From the NCBI GenBank assembly GCA_030264375.1, contig JASCQW010000128.1, positions 33,825,973-33,889,972 of the forward strand: a stretch of DNA of 64,000 nucleotides, read 5' to 3'. How positions within the stretch are numbered: position 1 is the stretch's first letter; the number at the start of each line of letters is the position of its first letter. Shown in pieces: positions 1 to 50,209 of this stretch. The position numbers and the translations under genes were made by a program. The notes beneath the pieces were generated by a model that saw nothing but the letters and a program-made list of their open reading frames with translations, was not told where the DNA came from and did no database searches. The DNA comes from Carcharhinus longimanus. Its lineage: Eukaryota.

Positions 1-50
1 CCACGTTCTCAGCCTCACCAAGGGAGTCGATGTCAAACCAGGACTCAAAG
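1..50 (-). CDS. HELLS: HELLS/LSH (SNF2-family helicase)-like exon fragment, running off the window edge
   Basis: Strong acceptor (ttttatttatttatttttgtacag|C), phase 2. Translates FESWFDIDSLGEAENV, versus recalled human HELLS (LKS)FESWFDITSLSETAEDII. Only 16 codons are visible. Confidence 0.65.
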
Positions 51-800
51 CTGTACAAAAATAAATAAATAAAAGATACAAACAAGAGATTAAAGCTGAG
101 TAGTTAGCAACACAGGAATAAGTACAGATTCAGAATCCAAACACTGTCCTACCATAAACATCCAATGATCCATTCTGAACAGTTTAGGAGTAAGAAAGTG
201 CTGTAGTTTTGGACACACTAATATATCCAGCATAATTAAGTTATTTCTTATCCTCTTGTACTTTCTTCAGTGCCTAATTATATATACACCTCCTGGAATT
301 TTTTATGCTGATTTTCTACAAATTATTTCTATTGCCTCCAGCATTATAGAAGTTGGAGTTGCATCTATCCACTTCTCCATCAAGAATGAAATTAGCTTCT
401 TCAGTTGTGCAAGATTGCAGGTGAAAGCAGATTTAATTACAAAAACAGTATTCAAGCAATAATCTCACTTTCCTTTGCCTCATTGGCAGAAATAACTTCT
501 ATTGGTGCAAAGCCCATTTTTAAATCAAGAAAAAAAATCAAAAGCTATCATGTTCATTGAACCAGCACATATTCAAAGATCTATCTATCAACATATTTGA
601 AATCACTAAAAAATAAAATCTCAGTGGTAGTTGGAGGCTGGCAAATAGTGCCTTCTCTCATTCCACTGTGACATCGAAAGGCAGTACCACCAGAATTCTT
701 CCCTTGTGTCACTTGTCACACACAAATACATGTCATTTGCATTGAGAAAAGATCAAATCAGCTTAAATTTAGCCAACATCTGTTAAATTCCTTTCCTTAC

Positions 801-942
801 CTGATACTTCAGTGCTTCTCTCAACAGAGACCATGCGTTGAGCAGTGGGGTTGTTGAACATATCTGGCAGAGGACTTTTTTGAACTCTTCCAGGAGGAGC
901 TGGTGGTATTTTTAAATTATTCTGTAATGCAGGGTCATGTAC
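801..942 (-). CDS. BAIAP2L1: BAIAP2L1 coding exon (exon 9 equivalent), proline-rich linker
   Basis: 142 bp, gtcctag|GTA...TCAG|gtaagg, phase 0-1. Translates VHDPALQNNLKIPPAPPGRVQKSPLPDMFNNPTAQRMVSVERSTEVS, versus human [22 protein letters not shown]. The acceptor could instead be at 921. Confidence 0.88.
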
Positions 943-4100: not shown

Positions 4101-4975
4101 TGTATGAATCAATTATATATTAACTTGCCAATAAAAATTGACATATGCAAGTTAATTGTACCTTTTACAATGAGGATGTTTTGAGCACTGTAGATGCAAA
4201 TATACTCTTTTGTCGCTGAAGCCTTCCTACTAATAGTACTACTTTATGGGTCTTTGTTACTGGCGTCTCCTATTTGATACTTTTTAAACCCAAATGCTGT
4301 TTGTATAGAATTACATGCCAGAAATTCCTGAGTAGAATAAATATTTATATCACATTGCCTTCCCACATACTTTCTTTCTTGTATGTGGATTCATCAGTGA
4401 AGTGTCATTTCATTCTTGGCCATGGTTTGAACTGAATCCACTTCTCTCTCTCAGCTGCATGAGTTTAGTGCTGTTAATTTGGAATTTCAAACCAATTTCC
4501 AATGGGGCAAACCACCACAAATTTGCCCACAATTGGTTAAAACAATGACAGTCTCAGAGAAGCCATAAGAAGTGAAGAAATTAACATTGATGCAGTTGAA
4601 ATTAGATGAGAATCCTTGCCTCACCTTCAAATTTATATAATTTTGCATTTTAATCCACACTTACTCCACCCACAGATATACTCTCACTCAATTCCACAAC
4701 TCCTCCAGTATGATTTTGGTTTCCTGTCCCTCATCACTGGTGATCTTACTTTCTCCTGCATACTGAAACTTCATCCCTAAATAGTTTGCAACAACTCATT
4801 CTATTTTCGAAAAGTACTTTTTTTTTTAAACCACCCTTAATTCTATCTTTTTTTTTGAGGAAGATGGCAAAAGTACAAGAAGTTCTTGCTGTTGAATGCA
4901 ATCTTATATCCATTGCTAACCAAAGTAGATTTTTTAAATAAATGATTTCTGCCCTCCCCAAAATCAGTCACTCAC

Positions 4976-5125
4976 AGTGTATCGTCCCATCAATGGAGAA
5001 GGTTGAGGAGTTCTGGATATATATGATGGGGGACTGTCATCTTCACTCAAAAACTCTGGCACCTTGGTGGCATCGAAACATTTCTCCTTCCATCGGTTTA
5101 GTTTGGCACTTAGTACTTCACTGGT
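4976..5125 (-). CDS. BAIAP2L1: BAIAP2L1 coding exon (exon 8 equivalent), end of I-BAR domain
   Basis: 150 bp, ttcctttag|ACC...ACT|gtgagt. Translates TSEVLSAKLNRWKEKCFDATKVPEFLSEDDSPPSYISRTPQPSPLMGRYT, versus human [24 protein letters not shown]...TPQASPM. Not in the ORF track. Confidence 0.92.
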
Positions 5126-7710: not shown

Positions 7711-7775
7711 TTTTAATGCATTGCCATATATTTCCCCCAACAAGAGCATACTTTCAACAGTTCAATCATACAGAC

Positions 7776-7928
7776 CTTTTCATGGTAATTGCTCAGATCT
7801 TGGGAAAAGCTGCAATGTTTGTCCACTAGGAAGCAGAACCGTCTTTTTTCCTCAAGTAAGGCCTCTTTGCAACCTTCAGTAATGAATCGCTGAATATCAT
7901 TTTCCCTTGTACTGATGGTCGCTAAAAA
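7776..7928 (-). CDS. BAIAP2L1: BAIAP2L1 coding exon (exon 7 equivalent)
   Basis: 153 bp, ttcccag|TTT...AAG|gtctgt. Translates [51 protein letters not shown], containing the conserved [21 protein letters not shown] motif. Confidence 0.96.
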
Positions 7929-8988
7929 CTGGGAAACAAAATACACATTAATTTTCTGTATTTCAAAAACAAGTCATTTTTTAACAGGTCATACTTATTG
8001 AAATTCTGGTAGAAGATCCAGCTTCTATCATGTTTATGATAATATTATAGAAATAATTTGGTGCTTTCCTTTTAATGCAGACTTTTAAAAAATTCTCATG
8101 AATTAGAAGAGATAGCAACTCAAATGATGTTCGCTGATATCAATGATTGCATTTCAGAAATTAAAGATTTGTTCTAATCAAATTAAAAAGCAACATTAAA
8201 TAATCAGAAGCTGGCCATTTAAATGCAAATGAGGAGCATGAGAGAAAAACATCGAACAGGGCTAGTTTGGTGCTGTAATATTACCATTTAGGGAATCAAG
8301 ATCAGAATAAAGGCAACATGTCATTAAATTTAGAACAGAAATACTCCTCCAGTCACTTCACACACATTTCAACTTTTGTTTATTGTGATTACAGAAAGAT
8401 TTTTATCAGAGCAGAACCAAATGCTTCTGTGATAAAAATAAACATTTTTGTTCTAGTTGTCAGTGGTATGCTTTCCGCACCATATTTCCAAGCATACCAA
8501 ATCATAAATGATTTTTACTGTTTATTCCAAAATCCATTAAGAAACAGTTTAAACACAAGGTGCACACAGCCCAACTATTTCCTGGTTTTATTTCAAGGAC
8601 AAACAGGTCAGTGAAGCAAACCCACACCTTCTTTATGATGTGGGTGTTTCCATAACCTACAGTTATGTTATGATTAAACTCACATTTTAGGGAAGAAGGA
8701 GATGAAAGGTAAAACATCATTCAAAATAGTCAAAAAGCTAAAGAAGAAATAGCATCATGTCTGTAAAAACACAAACTTTACTTAAAACACAATGTGTGAT
8801 AGTGTATACAAATAAACAAAAGATTCAATGTCGCCNNNNNNNNNNNNNNNNNNNNNNNNNNNNNNNNNNNNNNNNNNNNNNNNNNNNNAACTGATAAAAT
8901 CTGGCAGAGTTTGATCTAGAGCTCGATTTGAGTGTGATCTGACAACAAAATCTATTTATTAGCTAAGGAATCAGGCCTAATAAACACA

Positions 8989-14722: not shown

Positions 14723-16615
14723 TGGTAAAGTTACATGCATGTTCTACTCCAGATTGCCAGCTGGTGAAGGAAGAATCCAGAGCCTGTCTTTACTTGGGAT
14801 AGATTTATCCAGAGTGAAACATACCATGTATATATCCCTTCACTCCACTTACCGGTTAGTAAGTGTCTCTTTATATGTACTCAGGTAACCATCCAATTAA
14901 TGCCCTCCATCTGTAAGTATTAACCTCAACCAATACAATAAAAAAATGCATTTGTTAAATAATTTATCTAATAATTCAACTGATTACGAGGACAAATTGA
15001 TCAGTACATAAGACCACAAAATCCTTGATGTGTACTGTTGTTTTTATGAGCCCTGATATGTACTGCTACGTTGAGGAACATTGCTGAGCACTCTCATACA
15101 TGTTGAGGAAACAGATCTGAATCTCCATTCACCAATGTTCGCACTTGTATTTTGCTTTATTCATTATTCTTATCTTAAAACTTTGAGCGAAACAATGACA
15201 GATTTTTTGTCCCAGGTGATAGGAAGCGCTCAGCTGCAGTTCCCAATGCAGCATTCATTAGGAATCTCTTTAAATCAGTAGTAGGATGCTTTTGCTGGTA
15301 GTTCCTGACATTTTACTAATTTAGCTGAAGTGAATGGTGGGATCTTGTTTGCCCAAATTTGGTTAATTCTGTTAAATTTATTTTGGGTTGTTACTGACTG
15401 TGACAGAATCATACACGGGGTATGGCAGTAAAATCACCCACTAATAATATAAAAGCAGCTCTGAAATCACTCTTTGGATGTAGATATAGTCATTTGGGAA
15501 CAATTGACAACTCATCAGCAATGCACTGCCTTAAGGGCTGGATTGTGCAGATGAACAATATTACAAATCAAACAAAAATAGAAAGTAATGGAAATGCTCA
15601 GCAGGTCAGATAGCACCTGTAGAGAGGAAGGTAGCGTGGACATTCAGGCGTATGGAACATCGAAACAATGTCAGCCATTCAACCGCTCAAACATGTCCTA
15701 CCATTCAATGAGATCATGTCTGATCAGGTTTCTAACAAAAGGTCATCAATTCAAAATGTTAACCCGCATCTTCCCTTCTCTACAGAATTTTCTCTATTTT
15801 CAAATATTATTGGTTTATAATTTCATATTTCCAGTATTTTGCTAAATGTTACAAATCAGACAGCTGTTCTTTAACATTCAAGAATTGCCACTTGAATGAT
15901 CATGACAGACAAACAAACTGCATTAATTACCATAAACAATTGTGTGGTTTCTGGTTTCCAAAAGTAGATTTTGATTGTCAAAGTAGGGGTTATTAATACA
16001 GATGATAGTAGGATTCCTCTGTACCACTGCAATACAAGATTAACACCCTTTCTTCCTGTGTAGTAGAAGTATTGACATATTCTGCAATATCTCTGACAAA
16101 AATAGACAGGCTGCTAGTTTTATTGCACAGCCTGAGTTATATGGTCCCTCCAGTGGCAGCCGGCAGCAATTTTATGGTGGGGTGGGCACGGCCTCACTGC
16201 GCAGGGCTCGCCCATGGCAGTCAATCTGAAACATTCAGGCCCATGTTTTAGATTATAGTAGATCAGCCATTTGCTGGTGCTTATGCTGATTCTTAACAAG
16301 TGGCCACCTCCTTGTGTCTTTACCTCAAGAGCACTGAAATCAAATTTACATGTTCACATCATTAGCCATGCTAAATATGAACTGCACATGATTTACAGAT
16401 AAACATACATGAAAAACTTTTCACTGAAGCACTCAATTCTGTAAAAAAAAGTATTAGCTATGAGCCAAAGTAGTACACCTCTCACCAGCAAACCATTGTC
16501 ATACTGTAGAAGGATTAACAGGTTAGGTTCTGTACATTGAAAGAGAAAAATGACAGCAATGGGATAGGAATTAAATTGTTAGTTTACACACAGAGAATAA
16601 TAAGCTAATACATAC

Positions 16616-16753
16616 CTCCATTTCTTTATTTTCATATTTATACGCATTTTTTGTTCCTTGACTTTTCCTTCGAAGCTTCTTGAGTTCTGCTTGAGACTTT
16701 TCAAGAGAATCCAATTTAGTTCTATGTTCTGTTTGGTACTTTTTAAGAGTTGC
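16616..16753 (-). CDS. BAIAP2L1: BAIAP2L1 coding exon (exon 6 equivalent)
   Basis: 138 bp, tttgcag|GCA...GAG|gtatgt. Translates [46 protein letters not shown], closer to BAIAP2L1 ([26 protein letters not shown]) than to BAIAP2 (AALKKYQTEQRSKGDALDKC). Confidence 0.96.
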
Positions 16754-17029
16754 CTGCAAACAAAATTTCATCAATGTATTAATCTGCAGTTTTTTTGGAC
16801 TCAAAAAACTTCAATTGATTCGGCAATCTTGCAGAGTAATAGCAGTGAATTCTGCTTGATTGAAGACTTTACAGGGATTCAAATCTAGGAATAACTAACT
16901 TTGGCTCAATTTACAAATGCAGAAATTCAGATAAGCATCAGTTTAATCTCTTATAGCTGTTTCATTATGCATTCTTAGTCTTTGTTACTCAGCCTTTTCG
17001 ATATTAACAACTTGCAGTAAGTCCAGTTC

Positions 17030-18790: not shown

Positions 18791-19213
18791 TTATGACAAC
18801 CTTGTCCTCTACATTAAGAATTTTTGAGCTTTTATTATCCAACATGCTTGAATTTCTACTATCCAACAGATTCTTCAGTTATTGGCTTGTTGAAAGGGTT
18901 AATTATTTGCTCAGGGAAATAACTGCTGTCACTTTAGAATTATCTGTAAAATGGGTGCTTGCTTACATTGTGTTAACACACCATTAATATTTGAAACCTA
19001 AAAATAATTGGGTGAGATCGGAGAAGAAAGGATATATCCTTTTGGTGGCACAAGATCAAAAACATGTTGAATGAATATTCAGTATTTGGAAAAATTGAAG
19101 GATTTCTTTAAAGTATTAAGGTTACATTTGTATTTTGCAACAGAAGTGACAATTGCCAGTAATCATAACTTTGCACAAGTTACCGTTGTAGAATGAAAAC
19201 ATTAGATACCTAC

Positions 19214-19285
19214 ATTCATGTATTTCACATCTTGATCAGTCTTTTTCTCCAATTCACTTATGATATCTTTGTGAAATTTCCTAAA
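19214..19285 (-). CDS. BAIAP2L1: BAIAP2L1 coding exon (exon 5 equivalent)
   Basis: 72 bp, cctttaag|TTT...AAT|gtaggt. Translates [24 protein letters not shown], versus human [24 protein letters not shown]. Confidence 0.95.
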
Positions 19286-19906: not shown

Positions 19907-19911
19907 CATAC

Positions 19912-19973
19912 ATTATCTTCCATATCTATGTTGATTTTCTTGTGTACTTCAGAAATCTCCATGAGGACTTGTC
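19912..19973 (-). CDS. BAIAP2L1: BAIAP2L1 coding exon (exon 4 equivalent)
   Basis: 62 bp, ccccacag|GA...AAT|gtatgt, phase 1-0. Translates (G)QVLMEISEVHKKINIDMEDN, versus human GHVLIEISSTHKKLNESLDEN. Confidence 0.93.
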
Positions 19974-20285
19974 CTGTGGGGACAATTGAAAATTAAGTTC
20001 AAGAAGCTGCTTTTTTTTTTCATTTGCACACAATATTCTGCATTGCAAATGTTCTTGAATTTCCAGTCCATCATTGTTGTTGAAAGCAGAGATAGTTACT
20101 TCCTGGCCTCCATGACTGGATCAGTCAACAACTACTGGGAACTGCTTAAGAAAGTCAATCTACATTTGCCACTCTGCATCTATCTTTCTGACCTGGAAGG
20201 CATTACAGGTTATGTATTTAGTCTGGCTGAGATTGAGAACTGACCAGAGCAGTCAAGCTTGTCAGAAAATGCTGGTTCAGCCTCT

Positions 20286-46345: not shown

Positions 46346-47723
46346 TACTATTTTCTCCAACACACATTGTCTTGCTTTGTGATTGGACATATGTGAGCAA
46401 CTTTCCACATTGTTGAGTAGATGCTAGTGTTGTAGCTGTCCCAGTATAGCTTGGATGTGGTGCCTTTGTAATAAAAAAATGGTGCATTACTAGAAATAAA
46501 TTTTCTCCTTTTTAAATCTAATCAGCAAACAGAAATAGGAAAGGAATTGGGATTCTACCCATTGTGGACATTTGCATTTAATGCATGGGGAAAGACTCGC
46601 CATCTGCAGTCCTGCAAGAGCTAGGGGAGATGAACTCCAGTCAGCATGGCGGGCTATCAGTAGATCTATATCCACTTTTATATTCTTTGCTATCATCTAG
46701 CTGGATTTCTTGCAGAAGAGGAAGATGAAGCAAATAAATAAATAAAATGGTGTAGACAGAATGAAGCACAGAGTATACAAAAGTGCAAGAGAGATTGATT
46801 TCACTGTTGTAGAATTCACAAACCAACTAAAATTCACTGTACGGCTTACAGGTGACCACTTGGAATTGATAATGGAAAATTGGAGATAAGAGGCAAGAAT
46901 CTGTGCCTTCAGGAGCAAAAGGGAAGGGCAGGAAATTGGCAAAATAGAACCAGCTTTTTCCAAGTTATATTATGTAAATTTTAATAGTTCTTGGTCTGCA
47001 TTGATGTCTCCTTATTCAGAATGTTTTTTAAGCTGATAAAAATAGTGAACAAAAATCATGATTGCCTGTCTCTACTTGAATACTTATACTTATTGATTTT
47101 ATCCAGAACTGGAAGATTTCAACTAACCCTGTCTACTATTAAATACATTTGCAGCTAGATGAACCATCAAAGTCAGCTACATCATAAAGCCATCCATAAA
47201 AAAATTGTTTCAACAAGTAAACATTTAACTGCAATTTAAAAGACTATGAACACATCATAACTCTCACCCTAAAACAATTTTGTGTGTAATATTGATTTTT
47301 GTTCCTCACTACAAGCACTCCAATGGAAAATGTGCTACATACTACATTGCTTACTTTTTCAAGCTACTGTGATGTTAACATGCAATCATGTTTTTGAAGT
47401 TTGATAAAGATTAGAAATGGTGATTGAATAACTTACTAATTAATTTGAAGAGCAGACTCAATAACCAGGGCAACATTTCTTTTCTAACCTATACCACAAA
47501 GCTGAAATTAACTGGTTGTTCATCACAACATTATTTGAAGGATCTGTTAAAATGGTCATTGGGTTTACCTGCATCATAGCACTTTCATTTTAAAGTAAAC
47601 TGACTTTACATGAAACACCAACATGTTCCTAACATAACAAAACTCATTATTGTATCTCCCAGAAAAATAAGTTTTATGTGAACTGAAATACAAAATGCAT
47701 CCATTGGCTCAAATGCATCTTAC

Positions 47724-47810
47724 CTAGCTCTTTGGAGACCGGTGACTGAGAACTCAACTCTCCCAATTTTGAAATGCCATCGAAGTATATCTTGCCTGCA
47801 GCCACCATAG
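47724..47810 (-). CDS. BAIAP2L1: BAIAP2L1/IRTKS coding exon (human exon 3 equivalent), I-BAR domain
   Basis: 87 bp, ttaacag|CT...CTAG|gtaag, phase 1-1. Translates (A)MVAAGKIYFDGISKLGELSSQSPVSKEL(G), versus recalled human [30 protein letters not shown]. Confidence 0.92.
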
Positions 47811-50209
47811 CTGTTAAAATAAGCAGAAAATAATATTTGGACGAAGTGTAGTTACTTATTTAAAACACAGCCAGTTACAATTTTTTTTGTTCCAAGAGAA
47901 AACACCAAGTACCTGTGAATTAAAACTGGAATCATAGCAAATAAAGACCATTATCCTATTGAGCTAGCTCATTTTGTAAAATTATTGCATCTGCCACGTT
48001 ACTGGTGACACATTTTACACCATTTTTTACCTTGCCACATTCCAAGTGTAAAGTTGCAAGTGAATCAAGGTTGCAAGTGAAAGTTGCTCAAAATGGATAG
48101 TAAAACCAGCTCTGATGACCAGTTTAGAATATGATTTAAAAAAAGTATTTCACTGGAGCTGCTTGTGTGTGTTACAAACTTTAGTTGTGCTTTTATGAGT
48201 TTTTCTGAAGGCTTTTGGTCATTGGCCCTAATATCTCCATATGTGGCTCAGTAAAGTTTTATTCAAAAATGCTCCAGCTTAGTGCTTTGGGATGTTTTAG
48301 GTTAACAGGTGACATAGTTGCTGTAGTATCATGTTTGCACTATTTGCATTTTTTCTTTTTGTACCTAAATAATAGCATGGTACATTATCAACCCAAGAAT
48401 CAGAGTTTCAAAGGTTTTGTTTTCTGAGTTCAAAGTTTAAATGTTTTCTTGAATGATTGCTGTTCTGTAGAAATAGAAAACCAGTTAATGTAATACTTTA
48501 AACTGAAACTCAAATGTCTTCTTTCTTTTTAAATTATGCAATTATCACCCTTTTCAATCACACAAATTAATAATGTAACACACCCATCAGATTATCTGGA
48601 AGTAAAATGAAACATAAATTGATAAAGATCAGTGCAAATTCCTTTGATCAAGGCATGTTCTCATTAAATCCATTCAGAACGTATTTTAAGAAATGCAAAA
48701 AGGAAGCATCAGTTTTTATGGGCTGGGTTCCTTTTTAGGCCAACTGGGACTGTAATAATTATTGTCCAAGAATTTATAAGAGTTTAAACAAGAGTTTGTA
48801 ACAGTGTGGTGTAATCTGGAGGCTGCAGACTTAATTGGGCAGTTTCCCTATGGACTAATAATATTGGTAAGAAGTATTATGAAAGAAATTTAAATTTAAA
48901 CCCTTCTAAAAATTTCAATCCTTAAAGTGTGCCATGTTTATTTAAATTAACTGCAGTTTTCTAATTTTGTCCAACAATGACAGTATTAGACCTAGTTGGA
49001 AATTTTTTAAAACATTTGCCCTAGGTTTCTACTGCAGCCCAATTATAACTGGGGAGGGACCTTTCAAACATTAGCAAGATAAACTCCTGAAAACAAGTAC
49101 AAGAATGAAAATTTCTTCCTTGGCAACAACCAGACCAGAAAGAATAGTTTACATCTCCTTCAACCATGAGAAATGTTAGCTTCTTTCAAGTACAAGCAAA
49201 TAGGATCACATATTGCTTAAACCGATAACTGCATGGTTTCAATGCTGTGTAGAAGTCCATTTCTGTTTTCAGATGTAGAATACACCATCTATTTGATGTT
49301 AAGGATCCTATCTGGCACCTTCAATGGAAGGGGGAAATGAATCAACAACATATTCACTTGCACCTTTCCGCAAGGAATCTGGATGAGCCCACATTCACAT
49401 CCAAGTCACAGTTGCTCTCTTTGTAATTTTTGTGCTGCAAATTACTTCTGGTGAGCTGCCTCTATCTCCTTTGGAACATGAAATAAATTTCAGATCCTGT
49501 GACTCTAGTTGGTACAGTAGCCCAGTCTGAGTGAACAAATGACCAATCTCCATGATTTTCTGGGTGCAATTACACTGCGAGTTTTATGTTGATGCGAAGC
49601 AGTCTCAGGTTTGTATCAAAGCTAAACCTGTACTATGTAAATTGGGTATTAAAGTTTGAACTGACACTGAAATGAAAATCTAAAGAGTCTCATTTCATTT
49701 TGTTCCAGTATGAGTCAAGCCCTGGCTCTTGATTCAAACTAAGTTTATATTATAACTGTAAAACTGATGCAAAGTAAAACCGCCACAGTTGTAGCATAAA
49801 TGCACCATTGATAACCTTCCAATTCAGTACTAAAATCCAGTCTAAGTCACTAGAACTGGAATGAAACCACAATTACCAAAGAGTGAAGTTTTTCATTCAA
49901 TGTAAATATAATTAAATTTGTCATGGAAGCAAGGCAAGGCTGTATGATCTACTTTTCTTCTTAATAAAATGCCACCATTCTGTCAAAATTCACAAAATCA
50001 AGTTCAGTCCCAGATAATTTACTGAGTTAAAACACGTTACATTAATAAATTTTAGTTAACCCAGATTTTCAAGATTTGAGAATAAATACACGTTAGGCTA
50101 CTCGTACTGACCACCTGCCAAAACAAAGTCTTGTCAAAGAACTATAAGACCATATAAATATCTTGGTCAGGTCTCAAAATATCTTGTTCAGATTTGGTCT
50201 CTCCACATA

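What the first reader, a model, noticed from the sequence alone, without database searches (positions are those of the whole stretch)
1..800. HELLS/LSH-like exon only 750 bp downstream of BAIAP2L1 exon 9, on the same strand
Seen: a strong polypyrimidine acceptor at 51-80, then C|TTT GAG TCC TGG TTT GAC ATC GAC TCC CTT GGT GAG GCT GAG AAC GTG = FESWFDIDSLGEAENV. Knowledge: this matches the SNF2 helicase HELLS (DDLKS-FESWFDITSL), and the leading C would complete the Ser codon (phase 2). BAIAP2L1 still needs its SH3/WH2 exons downstream, no upstream HELLS exon is visible in 51-800, and there is no N gap. Third codon positions are G/C-rich (10 of 15 non-Trp codons), unlike the AT-rich BAIAP2L1 exons. 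Inference: a scaffold misjoin or foreign (e.g. teleost prey) DNA, a duplicated or horizontally acquired HELLS fragment inside the intron, or a true rearrangement. Splicing from exon 9 (phase 1) would read another frame, ALSPGLTSTPLVRLRTW, giving an I-BAR protein without SH3.
Basis: partly seen in the sequence, partly recalled or inferred. Interest (0 to 1): 0.7.

Follow-up and report, generated by a model that had tools for sequence, protein, structure and literature searches.

The report
Bony-fish contaminant at shark assembly gap
The first 100 bases of this shark sequence are a scrap of a bony fish's HELLS gene, missing at this spot in other sequencing runs and most likely pasted onto the edge of an assembly gap from contaminating DNA, so the surrounding BAIAP2L1 gene is ordinary.

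Summary
The HELLS-like exon is real sequence, but it is foreign. Window 2-49 (minus strand) reads FESWFDIDSLGEAENV: 16/16 to two wrasse HELLS proteins, 7-9/16 to 12 cartilaginous fishes. The host is a shark with its own, different copy of this exon on another scaffold. In 4 of 4 public runs laid (4 studies), contigs match from base 101 on and continue before it with other letters, alike among the runs. So exactly bases 1-100 are absent there, and a 1,204-N run lies on their other side. BAIAP2L1 is intact: 14 collinear exon blocks, and exon 9 joins the SH3 exon in phase. The assembly holds much foreign DNA: a herring-type HELLS exon, three non-host fish-type mitochondria (one COX2 identical to a sardinella's), and two invertebrate-code mitochondrial pieces fused to host DNA at gap edges in the same way. 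Verdict: contamination at a gap edge (about 0.95), probably one 100-nt read. A real teleost-to-shark insertion is not fully excluded (about 0.02). The value is a warning for other findings in this assembly.

The parts
1..50 (-). 5' part of a foreign (percomorph-type) HELLS/LSH exon, phase-2 start, FESWFDIDSLGEAENV; cut off by the N run beyond base 1
   Evidence: 16/16 to P0117 and P0375; tblastn E 3e-5 in 364 kb
51..100 (-). Foreign intron end with polypyrimidine tract and AG acceptor; travels with the HELLS piece
   Evidence: other letters before base 101 in 4 of 4 runs; 19/50 identity to the host HELLS intron end
100..101 (.). Junction between foreign and host DNA, without N
   Evidence: loose ends at 101 in X1, X2, X6, X7 (71-157 letters)
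101..800 (-). Genuine BAIAP2L1 intron 9 (5' part)
   Evidence: single contigs span 101-1300 in X2, X6, X7; X1 covers 101-724 and 728-1300 with 0 other letters
801..942 (-). BAIAP2L1 exon 9 (matched part), phase-1 GT donor at 800; joins the SH3 exon about 1.65 kb left of the window in frame
4967..5116 (-). BAIAP2L1 exon 8 (tblastn extent)
7773..7931 (-). BAIAP2L1 exon 7 (tblastn extent)
16601..16771 (-). BAIAP2L1 exon 6 (tblastn extent)
19211..19285 (-). BAIAP2L1 exon 5 (tblastn extent)
19909..19974 (-). BAIAP2L1 exon 4 (tblastn extent)
47716..47817 (-). BAIAP2L1 exon 3 (tblastn extent)

Best explanation
Window bases 1-100 are a piece of a percomorph bony fish's HELLS gene (50 nt intron end plus 50 nt exon) that is absent at this place in four other runs and was likely joined by the assembly to the edge of a gap in intron 9 of a normal shark BAIAP2L1 gene. 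Shown: the piece is percomorph-type, ends at 100|101, borders an N run, the host gene is collinear, and the assembly carries DNA of several other animals. Inferred: the read pool was contaminated and a contig-end or gap-filling step attached one stray read; 100 nt is a common short-read length (recalled). The piece would have no biological function.
For: (1) Peptide 16/16 to Notolabrus and Halichoeres HELLS, 15/16 to Sparus, 7-9/16 to 12 chondrichthyans, 8-11/16 with one gap. (2) The host has its own HELLS on C122 with a different exon (FESWFDVTNITENAEDIV); a neighbouring exon is 61/61 to three sharks. (3) 4 of 4 runs laid, from 4 studies, have loose ends at base 101, 71-157 letters long and alike among runs; one run is otherwise identical to the window. 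(4) A 1,204-N run adjoins base 1. (5) 14 BAIAP2L1 exon blocks run collinearly over 132 kb, with exon 9 and exon 10 both in phase 1; no other HELLS hit under E 1 in 364 kb. (6) Foreign DNA elsewhere: a clupeiform-type HELLS exon on 654-bp contig C55281; three overlapping non-host COX1 genes, 75-84% identical to each other and to the host's; a COX2 identical to Sardinella melanura. (7) 2 of 2 invertebrate-code mitochondrial pieces found on large scaffolds touch an N gap at one end and are fused without N at the other.
Against: Only contigs were laid, and contigs drop rare variants, so an allele private to the assembled animal is not excluded. The tool skipped bases 1-86 as repeat-like, so zero depth there is no evidence; only the loose ends count. 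Only 4 of 22 listed runs were laid, and X1 may be the source sample. The N run may be an assembly gap or a withheld stretch; the tools do not tell which. The joining mechanism is inferred.
Confidence: 0.95

Rival explanations
1. A real germ-line insertion of teleost HELLS DNA in this shark individual (horizontal transfer), extending into the gap and possibly offering a cryptic acceptor to BAIAP2L1.
For: Seamless junction without N; intact acceptor on the gene's strand; fish-to-fish transfers exist (PMC12107551, passages); contigs cannot show absence.
Against: Absent in 4 of 4 runs, including one identical to the window elsewhere; no decay (16/16); length exactly 100 up to a gap; the assembly is contaminated and has two like cases from invertebrate mitochondria; single copy in the genome.
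Confidence: 0.02
2. A duplicated or misplaced copy of the shark's own HELLS exon, or a second shark HELLS paralog.
For: Same exon boundary and 22 of the first 23 aligned columns are mostly alike (alignment start); the host HELLS locus has gaps.
Against: The host exon is present at C122 and matches only 9/16 with a gap; the intron ends match 19/50; the peptide matches percomorphs without a gap; no further HELLS exon nearby.
Confidence: 0.01
3. An alternative or poison exon of BAIAP2L1 that resembles HELLS by chance (frame ALSPGLTSTPLVRLRTW).
For: Good acceptor 750 nt after the donor.
Against: 0 of 120 BAIAP2L1 proteins hold these residues, and 6 of 8 chondrichthyan proteins printed show the direct exon 9-10 join (the other 2 missed my search motif); chance of the HELLS match is at most about 3e-4; the segment is missing in relatives.
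Confidence: 0.01
4. A true rearrangement or scaffold misjoin that fuses BAIAP2L1 to a HELLS locus.
For: Adjacency in the window only.
Against: The SH3 exon lies 1.65 kb beyond the window start and four more exons follow in order; none of 84 SNF2 matches is on this scaffold.
Confidence: 0.005

Closest known systems
Foreign DNA at contig flanks or beside Ns in public assemblies (Conterminator survey, PMC7218494; passages read)
   Same: [quoted passage not shown] This assembly shows the first two.
   Different: That survey works across kingdoms by default; here it is fish in fish and 100 nt. FCS-GX ignores intra-kingdom chimeras under 10 kbp (PMC10898089, passages), so such a piece would pass that screen.
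Percomorph HELLS/LSH (SNF2 family), e.g. Notolabrus celidotus P0117 and Halichoeres trimaculatus P0375
   Same: 16/16 residues without a gap; same phase-2 exon start as the shark orthologue.
   Different: Only 50 coding bases; not a gene.
Fish-to-fish horizontal transfers (herring-smelt antifreeze gene: PMC3499448, PMC2440524, search listing and abstract start only; PMC12107551, passages)
   Same: A gene piece that sits in the wrong fish lineage.
   Different: Those cases are whole genes found in two species or independent assemblies, with long reads across them and clean mitochondrial read mapping. This piece fails the first test and the assembly holds foreign mitochondria.
BAIAP2L1/IRTKS (I-BAR, SH3) of cartilaginous fishes
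   Same: All 14 exon blocks present, 75-96% identical to Heterodontus P0241.
   Different: Nothing of note.

Membership tests
HELLS/LSH exon | FESWFD motif followed by HELLS-like residues | tested here: met
HELLS/LSH exon | Conserved phase-2 acceptor before FESWFD | tested here: met
HELLS/LSH exon | Frame continues to EREQN..MLHQ and a donor | not testable with these tools
   N run beyond base 1
Functional HELLS gene at this locus | Other SNF2/helicase exons up- and downstream | tested here: not met
Percomorph-type HELLS | Segment one residue shorter after FESWFD than in other vertebrates | tested here: met
   66 of 205 motif-bearing proteins have the short spacing (58 named, percomorph by recalled classification; 8 unnamed); the window aligns 16/16 without a gap to that type. 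The spacing itself cannot be measured on the cut piece.
Shark HELLS copy | Closer to chondrichthyan than to teleost HELLS | tested here: not met
Assembly contaminant at a contig flank | Absent at the locus in independent data | tested here: met
   4 of 4 runs (contigs only)
Assembly contaminant at a contig flank | Borders an N gap or contig end | tested here: met
   gap versus withheld stretch cannot be told apart
Assembly contaminant at a contig flank | Other foreign DNA in the same assembly | tested here: met
Assembly contaminant at a contig flank | Very low read depth in the source library | not testable with these tools
   no raw reads among the runs listed
Horizontal transfer between fishes | Present in a second individual, species or assembly | tested here: not met
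Horizontal transfer between fishes | Long reads span the piece and its flanks | not testable with these tools
   only contigs offered
Horizontal transfer between fishes | Data set free of foreign mitochondrial DNA | tested here: not met
BAIAP2L1 alternative exon | Seen in relatives' proteins or conserved in relatives' DNA | tested here: not met

The most novel reading that the evidence does not exclude
A recent real transfer of ordinary bony-fish genomic DNA (part of the HELLS gene, no transposon in view) into a shark's germ line, private to one individual or population, placing a working splice acceptor inside BAIAP2L1 intron 9.
Probability: 0.02. Interest if true: 0.75.

Novelty: not a real feature. 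Interest (0 to 1): 0.08.

Why it matters
As biology it does not matter: the piece is very likely an artefact and both genes are normal. As quality control it does. This assembly carries DNA of at least three other fish-type animals and an invertebrate, and some of it is fused without N to host sequence at gap edges inside chromosome-sized scaffolds, below the size that a standard screen reports. Any oddity next to a gap in this genome should be checked against reads first. If the insertion were real, it would be a transfer between bony and cartilaginous fishes caught while still polymorphic.

Tried and rejected
Extending the HELLS frame leftward failed: an N run follows base 1. A degenerate FESWFDI pattern gave 3 genome matches: the window and two non-coding chance hits; it missed the host exon, which has V at that place. 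The third match (C1) was not examined. Pfam found nothing in the 34-aa frame; the PDB search was not significant. No RNA holder was listed. A second laying of runs, meant to show the exon 9-10 joint and other gap edges, gave no result, so the splice rests on phase and on relatives' proteins and the other gap edges near the window are unchecked. Exact look-ups did not name the mitochondrion on C21427 (1, 6), and its COX2 identities (192-202 of 230 to 15 teleosts, 198 to the host) do not place it. A DNA search for window 1-110 found only itself. Paper searches for BAIAP2L1 with HELLS (13 papers, 10 listed, none relevant by title or abstract start) and for teleost-shark transfer with contamination (1 paper, not read) showed no report of this case. 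No supplements were read. No folding or complex jobs were run; a 16-residue piece does not warrant them.

Full report
Observation. Everything lies on the minus strand. Window 2-49 reads FESWFDIDSLGEAENV, after a C at 50 and a pyrimidine tract ending in AG. The BAIAP2L1 donor is at 801|800 in phase 1, 750 nt away. An exact 16-mer has a chance of 1.7e-22 per site; with the acceptor and an assumed 1e10 candidate peptides, 2.7e-4 are expected in the genome. So the match is not chance, although Pfam sees nothing and the PDB search gives human LSH only E 0.66.

Surroundings. The window is G000:C128:33825973-33889972. A 1,204-base N run begins right beyond base 1, in a scaffold full of N runs of 9 to 3,920 bases. 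It looks like a sized assembly gap, but withheld stretches also read N and I cannot tell them apart. tblastn of a shark BAIAP2L1 (P0241) over 364 kb finds 14 exon blocks in order on the minus strand, from 72,161 to -60,017 in window numbering, plus one stray weak hit. The SH3 exon starts about 1.65 kb left of base 1 with a phase-1 acceptor. The direct join reads ..STEVS-EDVNLTRSISV.. and matches 6 of 8 chondrichthyan proteins printed; 2 missed my motif. The only HELLS hit under E 1 in the 364 kb is the window piece, and none of 84 SNF2 matches lies on C128 (a lower bound). There is no rearrangement.

Whose HELLS is it? The host's HELLS gene lies on C122. One of its exons is 61/61 identical to three sharks, so the host is a shark. 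It has its own copy of the exon in question, FESWFDVTNITENAEDIV, with the same phase-2 start. Of 239 proteins have the motif. Of these, 66 have a segment one residue shorter (58 named, percomorph fishes by recalled classification, with Notolabrus checked; 8 unnamed) and 139 do not. The window peptide is 16/16 to Notolabrus and Halichoeres, 15/16 to Sparus, 7-9/16 to 12 chondrichthyans (8-11 with one gap) and 9/16 to the host exon with one gap; the intron ends match 19/50. GC3 is 11/16 against 11/32 in the host exon. The piece is percomorph-type; 16 residues do not name a species.

Is it in the shark? Of 22 runs listed I laid 4, from 4 studies. All match from base 101 rightwards, with 0, 9, 15 and 29 other letters over about 1,200 bases. 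All four go on before base 101 for 71-157 letters that are unlike window 71-100 and alike among the runs. The tool skipped bases 1-86 as repeat-like, so the zero depth there is no evidence; the loose ends are. Contigs drop rare alleles, and the identical run X1 may be the source sample. Still, the native intron is conserved across related animals and differs from exactly bases 1-100.

The assembly is contaminated. Contig C55281 (654 bp) holds another HELLS exon: 57-58/61 to four clupeiforms, 53-54 to percomorphs, 46-47 to chondrichthyans, GC3 52/61. There are six COX1 matches. Besides the host type on C154, three overlapping intact genes on small contigs are 75-84% identical to each other and to the host's; their bony-fish character is read from recalled residues, except C2370, whose COX2 is identical to Sardinella melanura. 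Further intact non-host cytochrome b and COX3 pieces lie on small contigs. Two pieces open under the invertebrate code and closed under the vertebrate one sit on large scaffolds. C160:2274494-2275066 (COX1, 191 codons) abuts a 2,375-N gap. C162:62600426-62601353 (COX3 and a further frame) abuts a 100-N gap. Both are fused without N to other sequence at their far end, with host repeats beyond. The two other mitochondrial-like hits on large scaffolds outside C154 have stops under both codes and are 77-80% like the host's, as old nuclear copies would be.

Mechanism. Shown: foreign origin, border at 100|101, N run on the other side, intact host gene, foreign DNA elsewhere with two cases of the same anatomy. 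Inferred: a stray read from a contaminated pool was attached at a contig end during gap filling; 100 nt fits one short read (recalled). The donor is probably a different fish from the clupeiform behind C55281. Prey and laboratory cross-talk both remain open. Confidence 0.95. Rivals: real insertion 0.02, host duplicate 0.01, BAIAP2L1 exon 0.01, rearrangement 0.005.

Comparison with what is known. PMC7218494 (passages) describes contamination as short contigs, flanks of longer contigs and regions beside Ns. PMC10898089 (passages) says FCS-GX ignores intra-kingdom chimeras under 10 kbp. PMC12107551 (passages) accepts fish-to-fish transfers only with presence in two species or assemblies, and adds mitochondrial read checks and spanning long reads; this case fails the first test, the assembly holds foreign mitochondria, and long reads were not available. 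Searches (listings only) showed no report of this locus. One look-up of the scan's notes for this genome returned one unrelated note.

Verdict. Not a real feature; interest 0.08. The lasting result is a warning that gap edges in this assembly can carry foreign DNA.

Noticed in passing
L038 (G000:C55281) 256-438 +: Unplaced 654-bp contig with a clupeiform-type HELLS exon, a second foreign HELLS piece in the assembly.
   Followed up: yes
L086/L079 (G000:C2370): Mitochondrial contig whose COX2 is identical to Sardinella melanura.
   Followed up: yes
L085 (G000:C21427) and L078 (G000:C13495): Two more non-host vertebrate-code mitochondrial contigs; COX1 84% identical in DNA and 98% in protein, so probably two related fish species; not named.
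   Followed up: partly
G000:C160:2274494-2275066 (L080) and G000:C162:62600426-62601353 (L102): Invertebrate-code COX1 and COX3 pieces (bivalve-like by recall) fused to host DNA at gap edges of large scaffolds; C51938 holds a similar COX3 end.
   Followed up: partly
L096 (G000:C56820) 407-628 -: Cytochrome b piece, 76% to the host's, that looks bird-like by recalled residues; if so, laboratory cross-talk is more likely than diet alone.
   Followed up: no
G000:C154 about 14.172-14.182 Mb (L088, L089): The host-type mitochondrial genes COX1, COX3 and cytochrome b lie with open frames inside a 41-Mb scaffold: a misplaced mitogenome or a very young nuclear copy.
   Followed up: no
G000:C160:10431396-10431725 and G000:C112:41245253-41245486: Decayed cytochrome b copies with stops, probably old nuclear mitochondrial copies.
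   Followed up: partly
L002 8500-8796 -: A SINE-like repeat (tRNA-like head, A-rich tail; read by eye) flanks the far side of the N run and may explain the gap.
   Followed up: no
   Followed up: no
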